DNA of 12,553 nt from a virus. Taxonomy: Duplodnaviria; Heunggongvirae; Uroviricota; Caudoviricetes. Each line of letters begins with the position of its first letter. Positions within the stretch are counted from its first letter, which is position 1. This document shows, one piece after another, positions 3,105-12,553 of the stretch. Location: the IMG/VR virus record IMGVR_UViG_2695420747_000002. The stretch is one strand, 5' to 3'. Below the pieces are notes generated by a model. The model made no database searches, was not told the origin of the DNA, and was given only the letters and a program-made list of their open reading frames with translations. Position numbers and translations under genes: made by a program.

Positions 3105-3705
3105 TTCACTGTTACCACCATCAGCCAGCAATTTCATGCGTTGTGCCGAAGCCGTCGGAACACGCATTACAGACATTCCGGTAGACCTCAACACGCTGTG
3201 GTCGCCGGACACCTGCCCGGTGCATCTGCTGCCTTATCTCGCCTGGGCGTTTTCCGTTGACCGCTGGGATCGCAACTGGCCGGAAGAGACAAAGCGACAG
3301 GTGATTCGTGATGCATGGCTGACACACCGACACAAAGGGACCATCAGCGCACTGCGAAGAGCCGTGGAGCCTCTCGGCTACCTGATTGAAGTAAAGGAGT
3401 GGTGGCAACTCAACGAGGAGCCAGGAACATTTCGCATTGTTGTCGGAGTACTTGATCAGGGCATCACCGATGAAATGTATCAGGAACTTGAGCGCCTTAT
3501 TGCGGATGCAAAACCAGTAAGTCGCCATCTGACGGGGCTGGCGATCAGCCTGAGTGTGAACGGAAAGATTTTCGTTGGTACGGGATGCTATCACGGCGAT
3601 GCCCTGACGGTTTATCCCTACACCCCGGAGTCTATTATTGTCGAAGGGGATTATTTCCCTGCCCCGGCCATTCATTTAATTGATAATCTGAGAGTAAACG
3701 CATGA
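3097..3705 (+). CDS. I: baseplate / tail protein I, P2 gpI-like
   Basis: The ORF track gives 3064, but ATG at 3097 has an AGGTGG RBS and overlaps the J stop by 8 nt, so it is the likelier start (202 aa). Sits directly before the tail fibre gene. Confidence 0.7.
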
Positions 3706-5717
3706 CAGCGAAATACTACGCCATTCTGACTAATCAGGGCGCGGAACGACTGGCTAACGCGACGATGCTCGGCAGTAAGCTGAATTTGACGCAAATGGCC
3801 GTTGGTGATGCAAATGGTGTGTTACCAACACCAAACCCTGCACAAACAAAACTGATTAACCAGAAACGCATTGCACCGCTGAATCTTCTGAATGTTGACT
3901 CTAACAATCAGAGCCAGATTATTGCGGAGCAAATCATCCCTGAAGACGAGGGAGGATTCTGGATCCGTGAGATTGGTCTTTATGATGATAAAGGTGTACT
4001 CATTGCGGTGGCAAACTGCCCGGAAACGTACAAACCGCAGTTGCAGGAAGGCAGTGGACGCACCCAGACTATCCGCATGATTCTGGTTGTCACGAACACC
4101 AAAGCCATCACGCTGAAAATCGACCCGTCTGTGGTTCTGGCAACCCGCAAATATGTGGATGATAAAATCTCAAAGCACGAGCAGTCACGACGTCACCCGG
4201 ACGCCTCGCTGACCGCAAAAGGCTTTGTTCAACTCAGTAGCGCCACTAACAGCGATTCTGAAACGCTGGCTGCAACGCCGAAAGCGGTTAAGGCCGCGTA
4301 TGACCTTGCTAACGCAAAATATACCGCTCAGGACGCCACGACGGCACGAAAAGGCATTGTCCAGCTCAGTAGCGCCACCAACAGCGATTCAGAAACGCTG
4401 GCGGCAACACCAAAGGCGGTAAAGGCAGCCTATGACCTTGCTAACGGGAAATATACCGCACAGGACGCCACGACGGCACAAAAAGGAATTGTCCAGCTCA
4501 GTAGTGCAACCAACAGCACATCTGAAACGCTTGCTGCAACACCGAAAGCAGTGAAAGCAGCTAATGACAATGCGAATGGTCGGGTACCTTCTGCCCGTAA
4601 GGTGAATGGTAAGGCGCTTTCGGCGGATATAACACTGACGCCGAAAGATATTGGTACGCTTAACTCAACAACAATGTCATTCAGCGGTGGTGCTGGTTGG
4701 TTCAAATTAGCAACGGTAACCATGCCACAGGCGAGTTCTGTTGTTTCAATTACGTTGATTGGTGGCGCTGGATTTAACGTCGGTTCACCTCAACAGGCAG
4801 GTATATCTGAACTTGTTTTGCGTGCAGGTAATGGTAATCCGAAGGGGATTACTGGTGCTTTATGGCAGCGCACATCGACAGGGTTTACAAATTTTGCCTG
4901 GGTCAATACATCTGGTGATACTTACGATATTTACGTTGCAATCGGAAATTATGCGACTGGTGTAAATATTCAATGGGATTATACCAGTAATGCCAGCGTG
5001 ACGATTCATACGTCACCAGCATATTCTGCTAATAAGCCGGAAGGGTTAACGGACGGTACAGTTTATTCACTCTATACGCCATCAGAGCAGTTTTATCCGC
5101 CTGGCGCACCAATCCCGTGGCCATCGGATACCGTTCCGTCTGGTTATGCCCTGATGCAGGGGCAGACTTTTGACAAATCTGCATACCCAAAACTTGCAGC
5201 GGCTTATCCGTCAGGCGTGATCCCTGATATGCGTGGCTGGACGATTAAGGGCAAACCCGCCAGTGGCCGGGCCGTATTGTCTCAGGAACAGGACGGCATT
5301 AAATCGCACACCCACAGCGCCAGCGCATCCAGTACGGATTTGGGTACGAAAACCACATCGTCGTTTGATTACGGGACGAAAACAACCTCACTATTTGACT
5401 ATGGGACCAAAACTACCAGTAACGACGGGAGTCACACGCATTCAATACCAACATCAGATGGTGCAAACCAGGGGGGGAAAATTCCACTGACATCTGGGCG
5501 TCTGGCAACTCAATATACATCAGCAACAACAGGTTCCTCTGGCTCACATTCTCATACTGTAGGTATTGGTTCTCATCAGCACACTGTCGGTATTGGTGCA
5601 CACACGCACTCCGTTGCGATTGGCTCACATGGACACACCATCACCGTTAACGCTGCTGGTAACGCGGAAAACACCGTCAAAAACATCGCATTTAACTATA
5701 TTGTGAGGCTTGCATAA
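3702..5717 (+). CDS. H: tail fibre protein, P2 gpH-like N-terminus with lambda Stf-like C-terminus
   Basis: 671 aa. N-terminus has the P2 gpH motifs ([67 protein letters not shown]). C-terminus ..[16 protein letters not shown] is the conserved end of lambda-type side tail fibres. ATG overlaps the I stop (ATGA). Confidence 0.9.
4218..4570 (+). repeat. in-frame tandem repeat inside the tail fibre gene (135-bp unit, about 2.6 copies)
   Basis: Units at 4218-4352, 4353-4487 and a partial third from 4488 encode GF/[43 protein letters not shown]. Copies differ by scattered, mostly synonymous substitutions. Confidence 0.75.
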
Positions 5718-6295
5718 TGGCATTCAGAATGAGTGAACAATCACGGACCATAAAAATTTATAATCTACTGACCGGAACCAATGAGTTTATTGGTGAAGGT
5801 GATGCATACATTCCACCTCATACAGGTCTGCCAGCAAACAGTACCGATATTGCCCCGCCAGATATTCCGGCTGGCTTCGTGGCCGTTTTCAACAGTGATG
5901 AGGCATCGTGGCATCTCGTTGAAGACCATCGGGGTAAAACGGTTTATGACGTGGCATCAGGGGACTCGTTATTTATTTCTGAACTCGGTCCATTACCGGA
6001 AAATGTTACCTGGTTGTCGCCGTATGGAGAGTATCAGAAGTGGAACGGCACATCCTGGGGGAAAGATGCAGAAGCAGAAAAACTGTTTCGGATAAGGGAG
6101 GCGGAAGAAACAAAAAACAGCCTGATGCAGGTAGCCAGTGAGCATATTGCACCACTTCAGGATGCTATAGATTTAGATATTGCGACGGAGGAAGAGACAT
6201 CGTTACTGGCTGCATGGAAGACATATCGAGTATTGTTGCATCGTGTTGATACAACAGTAGCAGCAGATATTGAGTGGCCAGTCGCCCCACAATAA
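5717..6295 (+). CDS. tfa: tail fibre assembly chaperone (Tfa family; functional equivalent of P2 G)
   Basis: 192 aa; begins [52 protein letters not shown].., which I recall as near-identical to lambda/E. coli Tfa proteins. ATG overlaps the H stop (TAATG). Confidence 0.9.
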
Positions 6296-6332
6296 AAAGA
6301 AAAAGCCATCGATAGAAATATCGATGGCTTTA
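6296..6332. terminator. hairpin shared by the converging tfa and acetyltransferase genes; intrinsic terminator for the minus-strand gene, at most weak in the plus direction
   Basis: Perfect 13-bp inverted repeat AAAGCCATCGATA (6302-6314), loop GAAA, TATCGATGGCTTT (6319-6331). Minus-sense it is followed by TTTTTCTTTTTT; plus-sense it follows the tfa stop by 7 nt. Confidence 0.6.
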
Positions 6333-6338
6333 TGTACT

Positions 6339-6911
6339 CTATTTATACAATACAGCACCGCTCTTTTTAGTTATATATGTGCAGTTCGATGGTATATCTT
6401 TATTTATAAAAGACATTGCACCTATTTTTACATTATCCCCAATTTTACGGGATAATCCAATGATGCAACAATTAGCTCCGATATCAACGTTGCTACCAAT
6501 TTTTACTCTTGAACCAGGTATGTCACCATCTATCTGTCCAATGGTCGTATTCTGTCGTAACACCAGATTTTCACCAGCATCAACAGCAAAATGAACAACA
6601 ATTCCAGCATGATGGGGAATTGTTAACCCTTTTCCAATATTTGCGCCCAATCCAATTTCGCAACCAAATTTGTTAATTATTTTACTGTTTAACTTCTTGG
6701 CTGCTTTCTTATGTAATTTATTACCATTAATATACATTTCGTTAGCCAACCGCCACCAGAAAAGGAAATTCCTGTTACGCTGCTTTTTCTCTCTTAAAAG
6801 CCTCCAGATATCCATACGTTTCCGCCGAATTACTTCATGTTTCCAGAAGTTTTTTAAATTAGTAGAGTTCCCAAATAAAACAAAGTGAATTGCCATTAGG
6901 TAAGACAGCAC
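6339..6911 (-). CDS. hexapeptide-repeat acyltransferase, serine O-acetyltransferase (CysE/WbbJ/WcaB)-like; cargo (moron) gene
   Basis: Left-handed beta-helix repeats (GCEIGLGANIGKGLTIPHHAGIVVH..., ..KIGSNVDIGANCCIIGLSRKIGDNVKIGAMSFINKDIP) align by eye with the CysE catalytic domain, including a His in the position of the catalytic His. The ORF is open to GTG at 6944, but GTG at 6911 follows AAGGAG (6918-6923) by 6 nt and is the likelier start; ATG at 6896 is another option. Markedly AT-rich compared with flanking genes. Confidence 0.7.
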   Translation of the reverse strand: MLSYLMAIHFVLFGNSTNLKNFWKHEVIRRKRMDIWRLLREKKQRNRNFLFWWRLANEMYINGNKLHKKAAKKLNSKIINKFGCEIGLGANIGKGLTIPHHAGIVVHFAVDAGENLVLRQNTTIGQIDGDIPGSRVKIGSNVDIGANCCIIGLSRKIGDNVKIGAMSFINKDIPSNCTYITKKSGAVLYK

Positions 6912-6962
6912 GATAATCTCCTTAATTATTATTTCAGACCACACATGTTATAAGGTTAAGAG

Positions 6963-6991
6963 ATTATAAAATCCTGTTGTTTATTATTCAA
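6963..6991 (-). promoter_or_regulatory. candidate sigma70 promoter for the acetyltransferase gene
   Basis: Minus-sense TTGAAT (6991-6986), 17-bp spacer, perfect TATAAT (6968-6963), AT-rich upstream; about 45 nt upstream of the preferred start. Confidence 0.45.
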
Positions 6992-7067
6992 AAACAATTT
7001 TCTGAGAAGGACATACAACAGCAAGTCGCCAGTCACCTTCATCAGGAAATTGGCGACATACGTTAAA

Positions 7068-7562
7068 TCAGAGCAGCCCCTTAACTGAGCTGGCCGCGCT
7101 ATTAAGGGATGATGTCACCTTATCTTTGAAGCCGGACAACATATCGCTGAACGATGAGGATTGCAGGCGCTCCCGCAAATCCTCATCACAGCGTTCAAGA
7201 GTCAGTGAAAATTCTATCTTTTTCGCCTTACCGTAGCGATCAAACTCGGAACGGGTCGTATTCGTTTCAGTCAGTACATACATGCCGTAAATCTGCCCGA
7301 CACCATCAATCAGAGGCCAGGGCCGTCCTGTATATGCCTGCGTGGTCAGCAATGAAAGCGACACTTCGCCACCTGTAATTTCAGGATAAAGCACGCCGGA
7401 AAGCACAATGCGATCATCACCTGCACCGATATACTGCCAGCTTGCTGAACGGTTAACGCGTTCATTTTTCACATGCCGCCAGCTTTTGTTTTGCTGTAAC
7501 TGCTGATGCGGCAATGTGCGCAGCTCAAAAACAAACATGCCGTAGATCATCATCATGACCAT
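7068..7562 (-). CDS. U: tail protein U, P2 gpU-like
   Basis: 164 aa against 159 aa for P2 gpU. Recalled motifs (MMM..GMFVF...LPHQ, GVLYPE.TGG, PW.L.DG.G.IYGMYV, ..F.LTL.R.DE); GAGGAG before the ATG; directly downstream of T. Confidence 0.8.
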   Translation of the reverse strand: MVMMMIYGMFVFELRTLPHQQLQQNKSWRHVKNERVNRSASWQYIGAGDDRIVLSGVLYPEITGGEVSLSLLTTQAYTGRPWPLIDGVGQIYGMYVLTETNTTRSEFDRYGKAKKIEFSLTLERCDEDLRERLQSSSFSDMLSGFKDKVTSSLNSAASSVKGLL

Positions 7563-7568
7563 GACTCC

Positions 7569-10385
7569 TCAATCTTTATCGTAAAAACTGCCACGTCCGG
7601 CACGGGCGCGCCGTTCCATCTCTGCCCTGACCATTTCACCGACCAGTTTCGCCAGTTCGCGGGGATTCTGCGTAACAACGTTATGCAGATGAACATGAAT
7701 TTCACCGCAAAATCCGGAGACAGCAGGCTCCCGGTTACGGGAAGTTGCAGGAACTGATGCCACTGGCGATCGTATGGCCTCCGCCACCGGGCGGGAGCTG
7801 GCCGCAACAACAGGGACCAGCGCCGGAGGCAGCGGAGCCGAGACCACGGGTGTGATATTAATTGCGGGGGCAGGCTTACTGACCTGCGCAATCTTCTGCT
7901 CCTGCCACTCCCCACGAACAGCAAGTGCGCGGGGCAGGTTCTTAAAGACAATATCGCCGGGGCCAATGCGTTTTTTCGTCTCATCAACCAGCTTACCTGT
8001 GTTATCAGCAATTTTGCTGAGTCTGCGTAGCGTCCCGGTATTGCTGTCTGTGAGCGGTTTGTTGTCTTTGGGTTTATCACCTCCGGTGCCATTGCCATTT
8101 TCCACAGGCTTCGGCGGATTGATTTTCGCCAGGTCCCCCTGAAGCAAGGCAACCTTGTCCTGAAGAATGGCCGCACGCTGTGCGTCTTCGATTTTCTTGC
8201 GCGCCCTTTCCGCTTCATCCGGAAGGACACCAAGTTTTTCAAGTATCCACGCCAGCGTATCCAGTAGCATTTTTGCAGGTGTCAGAACAAGTTGTAACGC
8301 ACCGCCAAGAACGTTACCGAATACCTCGCCAGCACTGGTGCATTTATCCAGCGTTTCCTTGCTGGACTCCATCGGTGACAACAGCGATTTAAACCAGTTA
8401 AACACCAGGCTGATCCCGCTTCCGATTGCGTCAAAAACAGGGCCAAACCGTTCAAAGGTTTCACGCAACGGGGTCAGCCTTTCCATAATCCCGCTGAACA
8501 CCCCGGCAAAAAATGCCCTGATGGGATCCCAGTATTTCCAGATAAGAACGGCAGCTCCGGCAAGCGCAGCCACGATAAGACCAACCGGACTGAACAGCGC
8601 CCCGATAGCGCCACCCAGCAAAGAAACAGAACCCGTCACCATTCCCCACAGCGCAGGCAACACCCTGATGACATTCATTGACCGGGTAAGAATGTCGAAA
8701 CCAAGACGCAAGGTGGCCAGCTTCCCGTAAAGCACCCCAATAACCAGCGACAACGAGCCAATCGTTGCAGTCATTGCCAGCAACGCACCGCCTGCTATCA
8801 GTAGCTGGCGCGTCAGTACCGGATGGGCCTGCGCCAGCGAGGTGATTTTTTCAAGCACCCGCGTGAGCCACTGCGTGACAGAACGCAGCGGACCGTCAAC
8901 CAGATCACTGATGCGAATACGAAGACCTTCCCATGCGCTGTCGAGATTTTTCAGGTCTCCATCAAGATTATCGGCCATTACTTTTGCAACGCGATCGGCC
9001 TCTCCCCTTGCCCCCTGCAATTCTCTGGTCAGTTTTTGCAGTTCTCCTGAACCAGCCGCCGCAACAAGCGTCTGCAAACCAACGAACGCCTCTTCTCCGG
9101 CAATGTCCTTGAAGAAGGAGACCTGGTCCACCTGTCCGTATTTTTGTGTCGCCTTATAGAGATCAAGCAGCACATCCTCCATCGGGCGCATTTTGCCTCT
9201 GGCGTCAGCAACTGACACCCCCAGCTCTTTCAGTGCATCAGCCGCAGCTTTTGGCGGTGATGCAAGGCGGGACAGACTTGCGCGCATGGCCGTACCAGCA
9301 TCGCTTCCGCGAAGACCATTATTGGCAAGCATCCCGGCCATGGCCGCCGCTTCTTCAAGACTGATACCAAGTTTTGCGGCAACCGGACCGGTATACTTCA
9401 TGGTTTCGCCCAGCGCGCGTAAATCAGTATTGGTCCGGGTGAATGCTGCTGTCAGCGTATCGCCAACCCGGTCCATTTGATCGGCTGTCAGGTTGAACTG
9501 TGTGAGGATATTGGAGCCTATATCAGCCGTCTCGCCGAGTTCGACGCCACCTGCCAGCGCCATATTAAGAACACCGGGCAATGCGGCCTGAATGGCCTGC
9601 GGAGTAAAACCAGCCATTGCCAGAAAGCTCTGCCCACTGGCGGCATCACTCGCAGTAAACTGTGTTTCAGAACCAAGTTTTAACGCCTGCTCACGCAGCG
9701 CCTTAAACTGCGGGCTGTTTTTGTCGATTCGCGTCAGTGCCTGAACGCGGGACATCTCTTTGCCGAACCCGATCGCAGGCTGCAAAAAACGCCCGGCAGC
9801 ATAGCCGCCAGCCGCTGCAGCACCAATTGCCAGCGCACCACCTGTTTTCAGTTTTCCCGCGGTTTCCTGCGCGCGCGAATACCGCTCACGCGCCCGCGTT
9901 ACACGCGCAAGCGCCTGCCGTTCGCGTTCAAGCTGGTTGTTGTACTGTTCGGTGCGTCTGATGGCCTGCTGGATGGTGTTATCGCTGCCTGTCAGGGAAA
10001 TGCCGTGGCGTTTCAGCTCTCCGCCAAGCTCCCGCATTTTCTGAATTTCCCGTGTGCGCGATTCATTCAGGCGTTCAAGCCGGGTGCTTAACTGCTGCAT
10101 CAGCTTTTGTTGTTTTTCGCTGAGCACTGTACCCGTGCGTTGTAACTGATTAAGGGCGTTAAGCTGGCGTCGTGCTTTCACGATGCCAGCATCCGCTTTA
10201 CTGACAGCGTCACGGGCGCGCTCAAATGAACGCGCCTGACGCTCGAGATTTTTGATCGCCCCCTGCGTTCGCTGGATGGAGTCACCAAACTGCCCCATCA
10301 GGCGGCGGGCGTTTTCGGCAGGCCGGGTCAGCCTGTCAACGGCGCTGAAAGCGACCCGGATATCAAGAGTCTTCATTATCTGCAT
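7569..10385 (-). CDS. T: tail tape measure protein, P2 gpT-like
   Basis: 938 aa with a coiled-coil-rich N-terminal third, Gly/Ala-rich hydrophobic central segments and a position between E/E' and U, all typical of tape measure proteins. Confidence 0.85.
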   Translation of the reverse strand: MQIMKTLDIRVAFSAVDRLTRPAENARRLMGQFGDSIQRTQGAIKNLERQARSFERARDAVSKADAGIVKARRQLNALNQLQRTGTVLSEKQQKLMQQLSTRLERLNESRTREIQKMRELGGELKRHGISLTGSDNTIQQAIRRTEQYNNQLERERQALARVTRARERYSRAQETAGKLKTGGALAIGAAAAGGYAAGRFLQPAIGFGKEMSRVQALTRIDKNSPQFKALREQALKLGSETQFTASDAASGQSFLAMAGFTPQAIQAALPGVLNMALAGGVELGETADIGSNILTQFNLTADQMDRVGDTLTAAFTRTNTDLRALGETMKYTGPVAAKLGISLEEAAAMAGMLANNGLRGSDAGTAMRASLSRLASPPKAAADALKELGVSVADARGKMRPMEDVLLDLYKATQKYGQVDQVSFFKDIAGEEAFVGLQTLVAAAGSGELQKLTRELQGARGEADRVAKVMADNLDGDLKNLDSAWEGLRIRISDLVDGPLRSVTQWLTRVLEKITSLAQAHPVLTRQLLIAGGALLAMTATIGSLSLVIGVLYGKLATLRLGFDILTRSMNVIRVLPALWGMVTGSVSLLGGAIGALFSPVGLIVAALAGAAVLIWKYWDPIRAFFAGVFSGIMERLTPLRETFERFGPVFDAIGSGISLVFNWFKSLLSPMESSKETLDKCTSAGEVFGNVLGGALQLVLTPAKMLLDTLAWILEKLGVLPDEAERARKKIEDAQRAAILQDKVALLQGDLAKINPPKPVENGNGTGGDKPKDNKPLTDSNTGTLRRLSKIADNTGKLVDETKKRIGPGDIVFKNLPRALAVRGEWQEQKIAQVSKPAPAINITPVVSAPLPPALVPVVAASSRPVAEAIRSPVASVPATSRNREPAVSGFCGEIHVHLHNVVTQNPRELAKLVGEMVRAEMERRARAGRGSFYDKD

Positions 10386-10901
10386 TCCCGCTGCGAAGTG
10401 CCGCCCGCTCGCGCCAGCTAACCACTTCGCCGGGCGTCATCATGAAGATTTCGGCGGGCGACCAGTTAAAAATGGCGGCAATATCCGCCACCAGATCTTC
10501 GATGTGCTCAAAGCACACCAGGGTGATTACGCTGCCGTCTCCTGCACGCTCTTCGCGCCAGAGTCTGGCTCGCTCATAAAATTTACAGCCACTGCGCACA
10601 ACTGAATAAAATCGCGTGACGACATTTTTTTAATCATCACTTCATCCAGTCGTGGCGAGGTCACGCGAGGCAACAGCGTAAACATGGTATCCGCTTTCAG
10701 ATTCAGCACATCAGACAGCGACAGACCACGCAGGGATCCAGCCTGCTCAATAGCCCCGGTGATCTCCACATACGTGATTTTTTCGCCACCACGCTCAATT
10801 GGTCGGGTCAGTTTTACGCCACGTTCGACAGCCATATCCTCACCTGCCGTCACATCATCCGCCACGGTGTTATTCCGGGTTTCAGTATCGATGTCTTTCA
10901 T
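10363..10901 (-). CDS. tail assembly chaperone E+E' (predicted programmed -1 frameshift product)
   Basis: The -1 frame relative to E opens just after a TAA (10632-10630) at the A7 run and stays open for about 88 codons to TGA at 10363-10365, overlapping the T start. Same arrangement as P2 E/E+E' and lambda G/GT. Confidence 0.55.
10527..10901 (-). CDS. E: tail assembly chaperone E, P2 gpE-like
   Basis: 124 aa; AAGGAG 7 nt upstream of the ATG at 10901; lies between FII and T and contains the slippery A-run at about codon 91-92. Confidence 0.75.
   Translation of the reverse strand: MKDIDTETRNNTVADDVTAGEDMAVERGVKLTRPIERGGEKITYVEITGAIEQAGSLRGLSLSDVLNLKADTMFTLLPRVTSPRLDEVMIKKMSSRDFIQLCAVAVNFMSEPDSGAKSVQETAA
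10624..10632 (-). other. putative -1 ribosomal frameshift site (A7 run) for E+E'
   Basis: E-frame codons ATT AAA AAA ATG; the second tRNA-Lys can re-pair one nucleotide back on AAA. The -1 frame has a stop immediately 5' and is open 3' of this run. Confidence 0.5.
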
Positions 10902-10956
10902 CAGTTGTCTCCTTTTCAGTCAAAGGCGACGCACTGCGCCGCCTGCATATTACTTA

Positions 10957-11469
10957 TCAGCCAAGCCCAAGCGCGGAACGGATACGGTCAGGCACAATGT
11001 CCTTGCCGTCCTTCCGGTAGATGTGGTTCAACAGGTCGATTTCCCACAGCGGGCGATCGTTAACGCTCAGCTTGTAGTAGGTGTTTTTGACAGCGTAAGT
11101 GTGTGATGTGGCTTCGCCCTGTTTGGCTTCCCCCATATCAATTTCCGTCACACGCCCGCGCATCTCGATTTCATACAGATCGCTTTCTGCATCGGTGTAG
11201 TATTCACCCGCAAAACGCAGCAGCGTGCCGTCAATCGTGCCGCCATATTTAAGGAACAGCGCACGAACAGCTCCCCCCATGACAAAACTCGCATCAAGCG
11301 CGGAGTCGTCCAGACCGAGATCAATACTTACCGCCCCCATCATGCCACCACCACGATAGCTGTCGGTTTTGCGCGTCAGTTTGGGCGGCGTGACGGATGT
11401 CACTTTACCCACTTCGTTTTCACCATCCACAAACAACGTAAAAAAGCGAAGATGTTTTGGTACAGCCAT
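10957..11469 (-). CDS. FII: tail tube protein, P2 gpFII-like
   Basis: 170 aa against 172 aa for P2 FII; recalled motifs (..TPPKLTRK...YRGGGM.G...DLGLDD.AL, RGR..EID.GE.KQGE); ATG overlaps the FI stop (TGATG). Confidence 0.85.
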   Translation of the reverse strand: MAVPKHLRFFTLFVDGENEVGKVTSVTPPKLTRKTDSYRGGGMMGAVSIDLGLDDSALDASFVMGGAVRALFLKYGGTIDGTLLRFAGEYYTDAESDLYEIEMRGRVTEIDMGEAKQGEATSHTYAVKNTYYKLSVNDRPLWEIDLLNHIYRKDGKDIVPDRIRSALGLG

Positions 11470-12422
11470 CAGGCACCTCCCAGCACCGCAAATGCGGGAC
11501 CAAAGAATTCATCAGTAAACGTCTGGTAAAGCTCCATGTCTTCCAGCGGGGGAACAGGCGTATATTTGTAGCGAATACGCACACGTCCCTGACGTAAATT
11601 CGTGGTGCCGTTATCCACCACGTCATACCAGCACTCCGCACCAATCAGTTTCCCGGCAGTAACCAGCGAATCCAGTTTTGCCCTGATGGCGCTGATAACA
11701 TCCTTCACGTTCGCAGGTGTCAGTGGACTGTCGATGGTTTCAAACTGCGCTTCCGCAATTGAATCAGCCAGCACCTGTGCGGTTCGGGTATACACCTCAA
11801 AGATGTAGGCGTTCGTTTCCGGTGTGCGGTTGCCCCAGAAGCGGAACCCGTTGCGACGAATAATGGTCGTGATTTCTTTGTTGTTGAGGCTATTGGCATC
11901 GCTGTCTTCGGCCTGCAACGACCAGAACACATGCCTGGACATTCCCAGCACATTTTTAACCGGAACGTTGGACAGCGATTTGTGCCAGCCCTGCTCATGG
12001 TCAATGCACGCACGAAGGCCGCACGCATAAGCAGGCGCGGGGAACGTTTCGTTTTTGCCACTTTTCGGGTTGTAGGCGATGAAGTCCGGCCATAAGAGCA
12101 TCACCTCACGTTCGTTGAATTTCTGGCGGTAGGTAATCGCCTCAGCCATCGTGTTACAGCCGTGACATGAGGCATACACAAACGCGCGCAGTTTACCTGC
12201 AATCACGCACAGGGATTTTGTTACAGCCTCCGTGTCCAGCTCCGGCGCGGCCAGAATACGCGGACGGTATCCGATGCTTTCATCCTGCTCTGCAACAAGC
12301 AGCGCATACATCCCCGTATAGCTGCCGTCATCCTCAGAACCACCGATAACCAGTTGATCCTGCGTCTTTCCGTCTTCTTCTTTGTGTTCAGCCACGCGAA
12401 CGACGATCACCTTTGTGCTCAC
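11469..12422 (-). CDS. FI: tail sheath protein, P2 gpFI-like, N-terminally truncated and probably non-functional
   Basis: 317 aa with recalled sheath motifs (PRILA.P.LDT, KLRAF.Y, YRQ.F..RE.M..WPDF, EQGWHK.LSNV, IRR.GFRFWGNRT, YTPVPPLE). Similarity continues 5' of the GTG at 12422 up to an in-frame TGA at 12480-12482, with no ATG or RBS; about 60-90 N-terminal residues expected of a roughly 396-aa sheath are missing. Confidence 0.7.
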   Translation of the reverse strand: MSTKVIVVRVAEHKEEDGKTQDQLVIGGSEDDGSYTGMYALLVAEQDESIGYRPRILAAPELDTEAVTKSLCVIAGKLRAFVYASCHGCNTMAEAITYRQKFNEREVMLLWPDFIAYNPKSGKNETFPAPAYACGLRACIDHEQGWHKSLSNVPVKNVLGMSRHVFWSLQAEDSDANSLNNKEITTIIRRNGFRFWGNRTPETNAYIFEVYTRTAQVLADSIAEAQFETIDSPLTPANVKDVISAIRAKLDSLVTAGKLIGAECWYDVVDNGTTNLRQGRVRIRYKYTPVPPLEDMELYQTFTDEFFGPAFAVLGGA

Positions 12423-12519
12423 CTGGTCTGCGATGGCCTTAAGCGCACGATAAAGCGTCCCCGTTGTCCCTAATGCCGATCAGTTAAGGATCAGTTGACC
12501 GATCCAGTGGCTGTGTAAG

Positions 12520-12553
12520 AATCCGGAAACGCTCACTTGTTTCCGGATTTTTT
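12520..12553 (+). terminator. plus-strand intrinsic terminator-like hairpin at the window edge
   Basis: AATCCGGAAAC (12520-12530), loop GCTCACTT, GTTTCCGGATT (12539-12549), then TTTT running to the window end. No plus-strand gene precedes it in the window. Confidence 0.45.

What the first reader, a model, noticed from the sequence alone, without database searches (positions are those of the whole stretch)
6296..7067. AT-rich cargo island with a stand-alone acetyltransferase-like gene between the tail fibre and tail sheath operons
This roughly 770-bp segment is visibly far more AT-rich than the flanking phage genes. It holds one minus-strand gene for a short hexapeptide-repeat protein whose beta-helix region resembles the serine O-acetyltransferase catalytic domain behind a basic N-terminal region of about 80 aa. 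The gene has its own sigma70-like promoter (TTGAAT, 17 bp, TATAAT) and a hairpin terminator, so it should be expressed in the lysogen independently of late transcription. In P2 the comparable position after the tail fibre assembly gene holds the Z/fun exclusion locus. Short acetyltransferases of this family usually modify surface polysaccharide precursors, so receptor masking or lysogenic conversion is the simplest hypothesis, but a small-molecule or toxin-like role cannot be excluded.
Basis: partly seen in the sequence, partly recalled or inferred. Interest (0 to 1): 0.75.

Follow-up and report, generated by a model that had tools for sequence, protein, structure and literature searches.

The report
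Acetyltransferase gene riding a tail-fibre cassette
An AT-rich, single-gene island in an E. coli P88/P2-type prophage encodes an intact, selectively maintained acetyltransferase that resembles serine acetyltransferase but lacks its serine-binding residues; it travels next to a tail-fibre assembly gene through three unrelated phage types, and its target is still unknown.

Summary
Window 6296-7067 has GC 0.348 against 0.544 elsewhere (z -5.7). It holds one minus-strand gene (6339-6911, 190 aa, GTG start with an AAGGAG ribosome site), a TTGAAT-17-TATAAT promoter-like site and a strong hairpin terminator.

The protein is a CysE-clade left-handed beta-helix acetyltransferase. It keeps the catalytic Asp/Glu-His dyad (E85, H100), but the L-serine-binding residues of true serine acetyltransferases are not conserved. 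It scores far below every curated family cut-off. All 62 complete copies examined are intact, with dN/dS 0.05-0.19.

The main new result is context. The gene is tied to the adjacent tail fibre assembly gene rather than to the P2 backbone. The same fibre tip-tfa-acetyltransferase cassette occurs in P88-like prophages (510 of 5426 complete E. coli genomes), in lambdoid prophages, and inside the invertible fibre segment of P1-like phage-plasmids. In described P88-like phages the slot holds an invertase-driven fibre switch; in P2 it holds fun(Z).

The function is untested. The published literature found calls it unknown. O-acetylation of a conserved, probably anionic surface glycan (lysogenic conversion) is the best guess, at about 0.4. 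A true serine acetyltransferase role is unlikely. Independence from late transcription is not established.

The parts
5103..5717 (+). Distal (collar-to-C-terminus) part of tail fibre gene H; the left end of the shared cassette
   Evidence: Homology to the P1-like loci (L082, L047) and to L054 starts at 5103 (L083 from 4649), which is codon 468 of H and the first residue of the Pfam Collar domain (468-515). The lambdoid copy L084 shares 5089-5381 and 5580-6993. The tip type varies among carriers: five clusters.
5717..6295 (+). Tail fibre assembly gene (G/tfa), the constant partner of the acetyltransferase gene
   Evidence: Pfam Caudo_TAP 6e-40. It is convergent with the acetyltransferase gene, about 43-49 bp away, in the loci that extend that far. 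52 of 53 tfa copies fall in one >=85% identity cluster.
6302..6331 (.). Bidirectional intrinsic-terminator hairpin between the convergent tfa and acetyltransferase genes
   Evidence: 13-bp stem. Energy is -18.3 kcal/mol on the minus strand (followed by UUUUUCUUUUU) and -19.5 on the plus strand, with z -6.5 and -7.5. The stem core is conserved in all 19 distinct downstream variants.
6339..6911 (-). CysE-clade left-handed beta-helix acetyltransferase gene (190 aa; annotated 'serine acetyltransferase', WP_000954200.1)
   Evidence: E85 and H100 align with the CysE D143/H158 dyad. P99, S134 and R135 lie at CysE D157, R192 and H193. 62 of 62 full-length copies are intact, with dN/dS 0.05-0.19. PHROG 2154, function unknown.
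6918..6923 (-). Shine-Dalgarno AAGGAG, 6 nt upstream of the GTG start at 6911
   Evidence: Read directly from the sequence. Conserved in the P88-type and lambdoid copies.
6963..6991 (-). Sigma-70-like promoter TTGAAT-17-TATAAT; the right end of the cassette lies at about 6993
   Evidence: 10 of 12 matches. Homology with lambdoid and other copies ends at 6993-6995. The 85 nt upstream of the start are 94% identical in L064, where the coding region is only 70% identical. The hexamers are degraded in lambdoid copies and absent in P1-type copies.
7025..7057 (-). Hairpin just downstream of the U stop codon, in a junction segment (6995-7061) found in neither P88 nor the cassette; a possible weak terminator of the late FI-U operon
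   Evidence: Folding 6995-7070 on the minus strand gives -22 kcal/mol, z -3.7. P88-backbone homology resumes at 7062. The segment is poorly conserved in L064 (58%).
7068..7562 (-). Tail gene U, the last gene of the FI-FII-E-E'-T-U late operon, transcribed toward the acetyltransferase gene
   Evidence: Pfam Phage_P2_GpU 5.5e-39. Gene order in E. coli 55989. 46% identical to P2 U.

Best explanation
The gene encodes an active, presumably trimeric, acetyl-CoA-dependent O-acetyltransferase of the serine-acetyltransferase clade that has lost serine specificity.

It is a phage 'moron' with its own promoter and terminator. It is fixed to the 3' end of a tail fibre assembly gene and spreads with that highly recombinogenic fibre cassette among P88/P2-like, lambdoid and P1-like temperate phages.

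The most likely job is to O-acetylate, at the cytoplasmic face of the inner membrane, a conserved and probably anionic envelope glycan or its precursor (LPS core, enterobacterial common antigen, colanic acid or similar). This would change the lysogen's surface: lysogenic conversion, reduced adsorption of competing or sister phages, or altered immune recognition.

- **Shown:** fold, retained catalytic dyad, loss of serine-binding residues, purifying selection, cassette linkage, and transcription signals at the sequence level.
- **Inferred:** enzymatic activity, the acceptor class, expression in the lysogen, and the phenotype.
For: **Fold and catalysis**
- The profile aligns to CysE at 98.8% probability, with E85 at D143 and H100 at H158.
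- The His is nearly invariant, and the acidic residue is D or E in all 24 family members.
- The roles of these residues are given in PMC8786284.

**Functional constraint**
- 62 of 62 full-length copies are intact; 32 alleles; dN/dS 0.05-0.19.

**Moron anatomy**
- GC 0.35 against 0.54.
- Promoter-like site, Shine-Dalgarno sequence and conserved terminator.
- The promoter and 5' UTR are 94% conserved where the coding region is 70% identical.

**Cassette linkage across three phage types**
- IMG/VR loci.
- pO111_2, p15648-1 and a lambdoid prophage.
- Cassette boundaries at 5103-6993.
- The gene lies inside 602-nt inverted repeats next to a resolvase-type invertase.
- The convergent pairing with tfa recurs at 35-52% identity in Gilliamella, Buttiauxella, Salmonella and Hafnia elements and in vB_EcoM-613R2.

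**Glycan acceptor**
- The nearest curated families are EPS/colanic-acid acetyltransferases and CysE.
- A 43%-identical chromosomal homologue lies between hldE/msbA-type LPS genes and a NeuB/GNAT/GT28/CMP-transferase nonulosonic-acid cluster.
- The N-domain is strongly basic: 20 K+R against 4 D+E.
- Precedent: the prophage beta-helix O-acetyltransferase NeuO has a positively charged surface for an anionic polysaccharide (PMC3046976).
- Prophage acetyltransferases were among the predictors of capsule type in Klebsiella (PMC13123978).
- Mu-type Tfa stays on the fibre tip and contributes to receptor recognition (PMC9608196). A link between the tfa partner and surface chemistry is therefore conceivable.
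Against: - There is no experimental or expression evidence. One paper states the role is unknown (PMC9603915).
- The gene is in no polysaccharide cluster, and no partner gene (flippase, glycosyltransferase) accompanies it.
- Carriers span many O-serogroups (O104, O55, O157, O111, O78), so any acceptor must be serotype-independent.
- The acetyltransferase allele does not co-vary with the fibre-tip type: five tip clusters, and each of the four multi-member clusters has mixed alleles. The linkage could be simple hitch-hiking on a recombination-prone module.
- Most distant family members are not next to tail genes (13 of 91 loci). Many sit beside transporters or GGDEF genes, which fits small-molecule substrates equally well.
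- The beta-helix part of the model has modest confidence, pLDDT 54-72.
Confidence: 0.4

Rival explanations
1. It acetylates a small molecule rather than a glycan. Candidates are a sugar, an antibiotic, a toxic metabolite or a signalling compound, by analogy with galactoside/maltose acetyltransferases or xenobiotic acetyltransferases. This would give the lysogen a metabolic or detoxification benefit.
For: - Weak but significant similarity to maltose and galactoside O-acetyltransferases in NCBIfam and the PDB.
- It is a single stand-alone gene with no glycan-pathway partners.
- Many distant homologues lie beside MFS/POT transporters: 17 of 84 upstream neighbours, 8 of them matching the POT family (apparently one conserved Rahnella context).
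Against: - Similarity to CysE/EpsC/WcaB is much stronger than to Maa/LacA/XAT enzymes.
- The strongly basic helical domain and the LPS/nonulosonic-acid neighbourhood of one chromosomal clade point to anionic glycans.
- There is no obvious reason for such a gene to be fixed next to tfa in several lineages.
Confidence: 0.2
2. It is an intracellular exclusion or anti-phage gene. It would be the functional counterpart of P2 fun(Z) in the same slot, acting by acetylating a component or metabolite that an invading phage needs.
For: - It occupies the slot and orientation of fun(Z), which blocks T5.
- The Z/fun locus is cited as a defence locus of P2 (PMC13586616).
- The slot is variable: invertase switch, fun(Z) or acetyltransferase.
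- Divergent alleles are swapped between conserved flanks.
- One homologue lies next to an abortive-infection gene in ESSI2_ev040.
Against: - No match to any PADLOC defence model.
- No similarity to Fun(Z).
- 'Acetyltransferase' does not occur in the two P2 hotspot studies.
- To my knowledge, no beta-helix acetyltransferase is known as a defence effector.
Confidence: 0.15
3. It is a genuine serine O-acetyltransferase, as annotated. It would raise O-acetylserine and cysteine supply, or perturb the CysB regulon, in the lysogen or during phage growth.
For: - RefSeq and phage records name it serine acetyltransferase.
- The best solved-structure and fold matches are all serine acetyltransferases.
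- The catalytic dyad is retained.
- Its size matches truncated CysE isoforms (PMC13040420).
- About half of the family has Asp at the position spaced like CysE D92.
Against: - TIGR01172 gives 60.9 bits against a 210.65 cut-off; PRK11132 gives 36 against 397.
- The residues that coordinate L-serine are not conserved: D157 is replaced by P99 and is never Asp in the family; R192 by S134; H193 by R135 (a variable column); the D92-equivalent is K31 in this protein.
- The protein ends ...AVLYK, with no extended C-terminal tail of the kind that binds CysK (sequence; established knowledge of CysE).
Confidence: 0.07
4. It acts in virion morphogenesis or host-range control. It might modify the fibre or Tfa, or a producer-cell receptor late in infection so that progeny are not lost on debris. 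Expression would be coupled to late transcription.
For: - The linkage to tfa is invariant.
- In this prophage the late FI-U operon reads toward the gene, with only a modest hairpin in between.
- In p15648-1 the gene is co-directional with, and downstream of, S-tfa inside the invertible segment. In pO111_2 it is antisense. Its coupling to late fibre transcription could therefore flip with the segment.
Against: - Described, viable P88-like phages lack the gene, so it is not needed for assembly.
- In lambdoid copies no late operon reads into it.
- Beta-helix acetyltransferases are not known to modify proteins (my own knowledge).
Confidence: 0.08

Closest known systems
Serine O-acetyltransferase CysE (EC 2.3.1.30; E. 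coli 1T3D, N. gonorrhoeae 6WYE/7RA4)
   Same: - Two-domain architecture: an N-terminal helical domain followed by a left-handed beta-helix.
- The catalytic acid-His dyad aligns (E85/H100 with D143/H158).
- These are the closest solved structures by sequence and by fold.
   Different: - The L-serine-binding residues (D92, D157, R192, H193) are not conserved.
- Scores are far below the curated CysE cut-offs.
- There is no extended C-terminal tail.
- The gene is phage-borne and AT-rich, not part of the cys regulon.
Polysaccharide O-acetyltransferases of the CysE-like clade (WcaB of colanic acid, 'EpsC')
   Same: - Similar size (about 160-190 aa) and the best NCBIfam similarity: EpsC 7e-21, WcaB 4e-14.
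- One distant homologue lies in an LPS / nonulosonic-acid region.
   Different: - Below the family cut-offs (74.6 against 150 bits; 52 against 196).
- Not located in any polysaccharide gene cluster.
- Has family-specific invariant motifs: FWWRLA, RQNTTIG, GAMSF.
NeuO, the CUS-3 prophage polysialic-acid O-acetyltransferase
   Same: - A prophage-encoded beta-helix O-acetyltransferase acting as a lysogenic-conversion gene.
- A positively charged surface suited to an anionic acceptor (PMC3046976). This is the closest functional analogy.
   Different: - No detectable sequence relationship: NeuO is absent from the PDB hits at E <= 1e-3.
- No phase-variable heptanucleotide repeats.
- A different clade (NeuO belongs with the Maa/NodL-like enzymes), a different phage type and a different genomic position.
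P2 fun(Z) locus
   Same: The same slot immediately after tail fibre assembly gene G, the same convergent orientation, non-essential cargo with its own expression signals.
   Different: - No sequence similarity.
- fun(Z) is 528 aa and blocks T5. The neighbouring FI-U operon has the opposite orientation here.
Gin/Cin/Pin-type invertible tail-fibre switches (Mu G segment, P1 C segment, P88-like phages)
   Same: - They occupy the same place after tfa in the closest described phages P88, 500465-2 and P88_4B11.
- In P1-like p15648-1 the acetyltransferase gene lies inside such a segment, between 602-nt inverted repeats.
   Different: - In the window the second tfa', the second fibre tip and the invertase are absent; the acetyltransferase gene takes their place.
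- Canonical G and C segments carry no gene between the two convergent tfa genes (my own knowledge of Mu and P1).

Membership tests
Left-handed beta-helix (hexapeptide-repeat) acyltransferase superfamily | Hexapeptide repeats forming a left-handed beta-helix | tested here: met
   Pfam Hexapep E 3.9e-5 (23.6 bits, just under the 27-bit cut-off). hhalign to CysE gives 98.8% probability over the beta-helix. The AF2 model shows short strands at 110-163, and Foldseek matches beta-helix SATs in every hit listed.
Left-handed beta-helix (hexapeptide-repeat) acyltransferase superfamily | Catalytic histidine in a loop protruding from the helix | tested here: met
   H100 aligns with CysE H158 and is nearly invariant in 24 family members. 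Its role is given in PMC8786284 and PMC3046976.
Left-handed beta-helix (hexapeptide-repeat) acyltransferase superfamily | Homotrimer with active sites at subunit interfaces | not testable with these tools
   Only a monomer could be modelled. The low pLDDT of the helix (54-72) is what one would expect for a subunit modelled without its partners.
Serine O-acetyltransferase CysE | Score above the curated equivalog cut-off (TIGR01172 / PRK11132) | tested here: not met
   60.9 against 210.65 bits; 36 against 397 bits.
Serine O-acetyltransferase CysE | Catalytic dyad Asp143-His158 (E. coli numbering) | tested here: met
   E85 and H100 fall at these positions. The acidic residue is D or E in all 24 sequences.
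Serine O-acetyltransferase CysE | L-serine-coordinating residues Asp92, Asp157, Arg192, His193 | tested here: not met
   P99 at D157 (never Asp in the family), S134 at R192, R135 at H193 (a variable column), and K31 at the D92-equivalent spacing. Residue roles come from PMC8786284.
Serine O-acetyltransferase CysE | N-terminal SATase helical domain | tested here: inconclusive
   Five confident helices (residues 1-82, pLDDT 82-93) superpose with SAT structures at TM 0.5-0.68. However, Pfam SATase_N is not detected, and the profile alignment to CysE starts only at residue 113.
Serine O-acetyltransferase CysE | Flexible C-terminal tail ending in Ile that binds CysK | tested here: not met
   The protein ends ...KKSGAVLYK about 10 residues after the last helix coil. 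The role of the tail is established knowledge of CysE and was not tested here.
WcaB / EpsC-type exopolysaccharide acetyltransferases | Score above the curated cut-off | tested here: not met
   EpsC 74.6 against 150 bits; WcaB 52.3 against 196 bits.
WcaB / EpsC-type exopolysaccharide acetyltransferases | Encoded within a polysaccharide biosynthesis cluster | tested here: not met
   The window gene lies between phage tail genes. Only a distant (43%) chromosomal homologue lies in an LPS / nonulosonic-acid region.
Prophage lysogenic-conversion O-acetyltransferase (NeuO type) | Prophage-encoded beta-helix O-acetyltransferase | tested here: met
Prophage lysogenic-conversion O-acetyltransferase (NeuO type) | Sequence relationship to NeuO/OatWY, and phase-variable 5' repeats | tested here: not met
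   NeuO is not among the PDB sequence hits at E <= 1e-3. No tandem repeats are found in 6200-7150.
Prophage lysogenic-conversion O-acetyltransferase (NeuO type) | Demonstrated acetylation of a surface polysaccharide | not testable with these tools
   Needs biochemistry. No publication on this protein was found.
P2 Z/fun locus occupant | Located directly after tail fibre assembly gene G, convergent, non-structural | tested here: met
   P2 annotation compared with the window. Canonical placement between G and FI is seen in Buttiauxella L102.
P2 Z/fun locus occupant | Homology to Fun(Z) | tested here: not met
   tblastn with P2 Fun(Z) gives no hit in the 55989 prophage or in related loci at E 1e-5.
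Known anti-phage defence systems (PADLOC-DB 2.0) | Match to a defence-protein model | tested here: not met
   0 families at E <= 0.1.

The most novel reading that the evidence does not exclude
The acetyltransferase is a receptor-editing partner of the Tfa-capped tail fibre. It would O-acetylate the conserved LPS or envelope glycan that this fibre/Tfa module touches, so that one portable three-gene cassette carries both the key (fibre tip plus Tfa) and a way to change the lock (the enzyme). In P1-like phage-plasmids, where the gene sits inside the invertible segment, its sense or antisense relation to the late fibre operon flips with the fibre type. Surface editing would then be coupled to which fibre is being made.
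Probability: 0.12. Interest if true: 0.75.

Novelty: new variant of a known kind. Interest (0 to 1): 0.45.

Why it matters
The gene is present in about one in ten complete E. coli genomes, including O157:H7, O55:H7, O111 and O104:H4-lineage strains. It also occurs on P1-like phage-plasmids that spread resistance genes (PMC9603915). Databases label it serine acetyltransferase, and the residue analysis here indicates that label is probably wrong.

If it edits a conserved surface glycan, it would be a serotype-independent lysogenic-conversion factor. It could alter phage susceptibility, phage-therapy host range and possibly immune recognition, and it moves between three phage families together with host-range determinants.

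The work also identifies the tfa-proximal slot of P88/P2-like phages as a three-state variable site: invertible fibre switch, fun(Z) or acetyltransferase. The experiments needed to test this are simple: cysE complementation, LPS mass spectrometry and plating on a phage panel.

Tried and rejected
- **Known defence system:** PADLOC gave nothing.
- **Characterised phage family:** PHROG 2154 has no function assigned. BFVD viral structures gave no significant fold match.
- **Literature:** no paper characterises the protein. The accession WP_000954200 is not cited anywhere. The Citrobacter phiNP paper only lists a homologue as a 'fitness' gene. The P1-like plasmid paper says the role is unknown. The two P2 hotspot papers do not contain the word 'acetyltransferase'.
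- **Broken P2 prophage:** I first read the inverted FI-U block and the short RefSeq D gene as a sign of a defective prophage. I rejected this. D is full length by tblastn, the same order occurs in the viable phage P88 and its relatives, and no inverted repeats mark an inversion.
- **Co-variation of acetyltransferase allele with fibre-tip type** (expected for cognate receptor masking): not found.
- **Universal tail-fibre linkage of the whole protein family:** rejected. Only 13 of 91 diverse loci have a tfa-like gene within 6 kb.
- **Phase-variable repeats like neuO:** none.
- **Non-coding RNA in the island:** only sub-threshold chance-level hits (Qrr, ncr1575).
- **Antisense ORFs inside the gene** (6270-6455, 6379-6594, 6670-6888): treated as chance ORFs in AT-rich DNA and not pursued.
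Full report
**1. What is in the window**

The 12.5-kb window is the tail module of a temperate myovirus integrated in E. coli. It is 100% identical to E. coli 55989 (NC_011748.1) over the island.

Plus strand:
- R (184-651)
- S (635-1279)
- V, W, J, I
- tail fibre H (3702-5717)
- tail fibre assembly protein G/tfa (5717-6295; Caudo_TAP 6e-40)

Minus strand:
- the focal ORF (6339-6944)
- U (7068-7562; Phage_P2_GpU 5.5e-39)
- tape measure T (7569-10385)
- E/E', tube FII and sheath FI

**2.

- GC of 6296-7067 is 0.348. All other 772-nt windows average 0.544 +/- 0.034, and none falls below 0.462 (z = -5.7).
- The ORF most plausibly starts at the GTG at 6911, six nt after AAGGAG. This gives the 190-aa protein that RefSeq calls 'serine acetyltransferase', WP_000954200.1.
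- The promoter-like site TTGAAT-17-TATAAT (6991..6963) and the hairpin terminator (6331..6302) are both found by the scan.
- The hairpin is strong (-18.3 kcal/mol, z -6.5) and works in both directions.
- A promoter-like match is not surprising in such AT-rich DNA: 5 found, 3.9 expected.
- The first 82 residues are very basic (20 K+R, 4 D+E) and fold as five helices.

**3. What the protein is**

- The best NCBIfam matches are EpsC (7e-21), CysE (1.5e-16) and WcaB (4e-14).
- The best solved structures by sequence are serine acetyltransferases.
- An AlphaFold2 model (pLDDT 75, pTM 0.74) matches SAT structures in every hit listed, TM 0.5-0.68, including the helical domain.
- All curated family cut-offs are missed by a wide margin.

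A profile of 24 family members (43-70% identical) aligns to E. coli CysE at 98.8% probability. The CysE sequence was checked as identical to PDB 1T3D. The alignment places:
- E85 at D143 and H100 at H158, the catalytic dyad
- P99 at D157, S134 at R192 and R135 at H193

In the N. gonorrhoeae enzyme the equivalents of D92, D157, R192 and H193 coordinate L-serine, and the equivalents of D143/H158 catalyse the reaction (PMC8786284). In the family alignment:
- the dyad positions are conserved
- the D157 position is never Asp
- the R192/H193 columns are variable
- the D92-equivalent is Lys in this protein

The family has its own invariant motifs (FWWRLA, RQNTTIG, GAMSF). I conclude that this is very probably an active acetyltransferase but not a serine acetyltransferase.

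**4. It is a maintained gene**

- All 62 full-length copies in related loci are intact 190-codon ORFs.
- There are 32 nucleotide alleles.
- Pairwise dN/dS is 0.05-0.19.
- The specific family is small: 61 representative clusters at E <= 1e-30 among 1.84 billion proteins. It sits inside a superfamily of thousands.

**5. The context is the main finding**

In 77 IMG/VR loci the gene always lies about 49 bp from the stop of a convergent tfa gene that is 91-100% identical to G. This holds whether or not the P2-type genes U, T and FI are on the other side.

Annotated examples show three backbones:
- P88-like prophages such as the one in the window.
- P1-like phage-plasmids pO111_2 and p15648-1.
- A lambdoid prophage with the order J-lom-stf-tfa-acetyltransferase.

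The boundaries of the shared DNA are:
- Left end at 5103, which is exactly codon 468 of H, the start of the Collar domain.
- Right end at about 6993, just beyond the -35 hexamer, in the lambdoid and other copies.
- Right end at 6903, the start codon, in the P1-type copies.

In p15648-1 the gene lies between 602-nt, 99% complementary inverted repeats, next to a resolvase-type invertase. It is therefore inside a P1 C-segment-like invertible region, between the two convergent tfa genes. In pO111_2 the same region is fixed in the opposite orientation relative to the backbone.

The convergent pairing with tfa recurs in much more distant homologues (35-52% identity):
- phage vB_EcoM-613R2 and Hafnia phage yong2
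- Gilliamella, Buttiauxella, Salmonella and other elements

**6. The slot**

- A true P2-like Buttiauxella prophage (FI 82% identical to P2) carries a homologue exactly there.
- The window's phage is only about 45% identical to P2 in FI, U and D.
- It is 92-95% identical at the DNA level to P88-like phages (Xuanwuvirus, Gemsvirus).
- In those phages the FI-U operon is on the opposite strand to H-G, and D-ogr diverge from FI.
- D is intact in 55989, despite a short RefSeq call.
- In P88, 500465-2 and P88_4B11, the space between tfa and U holds a second tfa', a second fibre tip and a DNA invertase.
- Backbone homology stops inside H at about 4580 and resumes at 7062.

So in the window the distal fibre, tfa and acetyltransferase replace an invertible host-range switch.

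**7. Expression signals**

- The terminator is conserved in every context.
- The TTGAAT/TATAAT promoter is conserved in all P88-type copies. In the divergent L064 the 85 nt upstream of the start are 94% identical, while the coding region is 70% identical (52% at third positions) and the next 65 nt are 58% identical. This points either to constraint or to allele exchange between conserved flanks.
- In lambdoid copies the hexamers read TTAAAT and TACACT. In P1-type copies the upstream DNA is unrelated and the start codon is ATG.
- In the window the late FI-U operon is co-directional with the gene. It is separated only by a hairpin of -22 kcal/mol with a modest U-tract.

Expression in the lysogen from the gene's own promoter is plausible. 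Independence from late transcription is not shown.

**8. What it most likely does**

No experiment or paper addresses this protein.
- One study of a P1-like plasmid states that the reason for its presence is unknown (PMC9603915).
- The word 'acetyltransferase' does not occur in the two P2 hotspot studies.

The case for a surface-glycan acceptor rests on:
- clade membership
- a chromosomal homologue lying between LPS-core genes and a nonulosonic-acid cluster
- the strongly basic domain, compared with the positively charged acceptor surface of the prophage enzyme NeuO (PMC3046976)
- evidence that prophage acetyltransferases track capsule type in Klebsiella (PMC13123978)

Because carriers span many O-serogroups, the acceptor would have to be a conserved structure such as LPS core, ECA or colanic acid.

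Against a strict 'mask the cognate receptor' model:
- One nearly invariant tfa-acetyltransferase pair is combined with five fibre-tip types, and each of the four multi-member types carries mixed enzyme alleles.
- Most distant family members are not next to tail genes.

Mu-type Tfa proteins remain on the fibre tip and contribute to receptor recognition (PMC9608196). A functional tie to tfa rather than to the tip is therefore possible but speculative. Simple hitch-hiking on the most frequently exchanged phage module explains the linkage equally well.

**9. Verdict**

The gene is an already annotated but uncharacterised, and probably mis-named, accessory enzyme. What is new here:
- the residue-level argument against serine specificity
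- the demonstration that the gene is one end of a fibre cassette shared by three phage families
- its position inside invertible fibre segments
- the three alternative occupants of this slot

I rate it a new variant of a known kind (prophage-borne beta-helix O-acetyltransferase or moron). Interest is moderate, and the experiments that would settle it are straightforward.

Noticed in passing
window 6060-6258 (+): Full-length match above the gathering score to Rfam family IS009 (RF02111; 175.7 bits against 117). It lies entirely inside the coding region of the tail fibre assembly gene G. The 'RNA family' may simply model a conserved stretch of prophage tfa genes.
   Followed up: partly
window 7068-12553 and L001 20800-27900: The FI-FII-E-E'-T-U operon is inverted relative to P2, and D-ogr diverge from FI. 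This is the normal architecture of P88-like phages, not a rearranged P2. RefSeq annotates D as 266 aa in 55989, but P2 D residues 15-384 align in one uninterrupted stretch (L001 26616-27668), so the annotated start is probably too far downstream.
   Followed up: yes
L166 1761-4465, L167 2444-4465, L168 2005-4472: Described P88-like phages carry a tfa / tfa' / fibre-tip' / DNA-invertase host-range switch in the slot where the window has the acetyltransferase gene.
   Followed up: yes
L083 5902-6503 and 10765-11366: 602-nt, 99% complementary inverted repeats flank a 4.3-kb segment in the P1-like plasmid p15648-1. The segment contains a frameshifted tfa, the acetyltransferase gene and tfa'. A resolvase-type invertase lies just outside. 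pO111_2 has the region fixed in the opposite orientation, without the invertase.
   Followed up: partly
L064 7596-8340 compared with window 6250-6996: In a divergent relative the acetyltransferase coding region is only 70% identical (dS saturated), but the 85-nt promoter/5' UTR (94%) and the terminator/tfa end are almost unchanged. This suggests that divergent alleles are swapped between conserved flanks.
   Followed up: partly
L124 2023-11311 (Pseudomonas abyssi): A 43%-identical chromosomal homologue sits between hldE, an msbA-like ABC transporter and a small kinase-like gene on one side, and a NeuB/GNAT/GT28/CMP-transferase (pseudaminic-acid-type) cluster on the other. The same SAT-NeuB pairing, with similarly sized flanking ORFs, appears in four Halopseudomonas/Pseudomonas loci.
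   Followed up: partly
window 6873-6911 (-), protein residues 1-13: The N-terminus (MLSYLMAIHFVLF) is a short hydrophobic helix: mean Kyte-Doolittle 2.0, pLDDT about 85. It is present in the close subfamily but missing in more distant members. It is too short for a transmembrane span and could be a membrane-surface anchor.
   Followed up: no
window 4170-4600 and 5400-5700 (gene H): H contains three tandem 'Phage tail fibre repeat' units (Pfam Phage_fiber_2). Near its C-terminus it has a run of Gly-x-His-x-His motifs ([33 protein letters not shown]), of the kind that bind metal ions in T4-type fibre tips.
   Followed up: no
L001 1759-3037 and 28166-28306: The same 55989 prophage carries ParM-type partition genes at the cos-side hotspot and a Hok/Gef toxin gene next to ogr. 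These are further accessory cargo of this phage lineage.
   Followed up: no
window 6995-7061: A 67-bp junction segment is shared neither with P88-like backbones nor with the cassette in other phages. It forms a hairpin (7025-7057) directly after the U stop codon. Its role as a terminator of the late operon is untested.
   Followed up: partly
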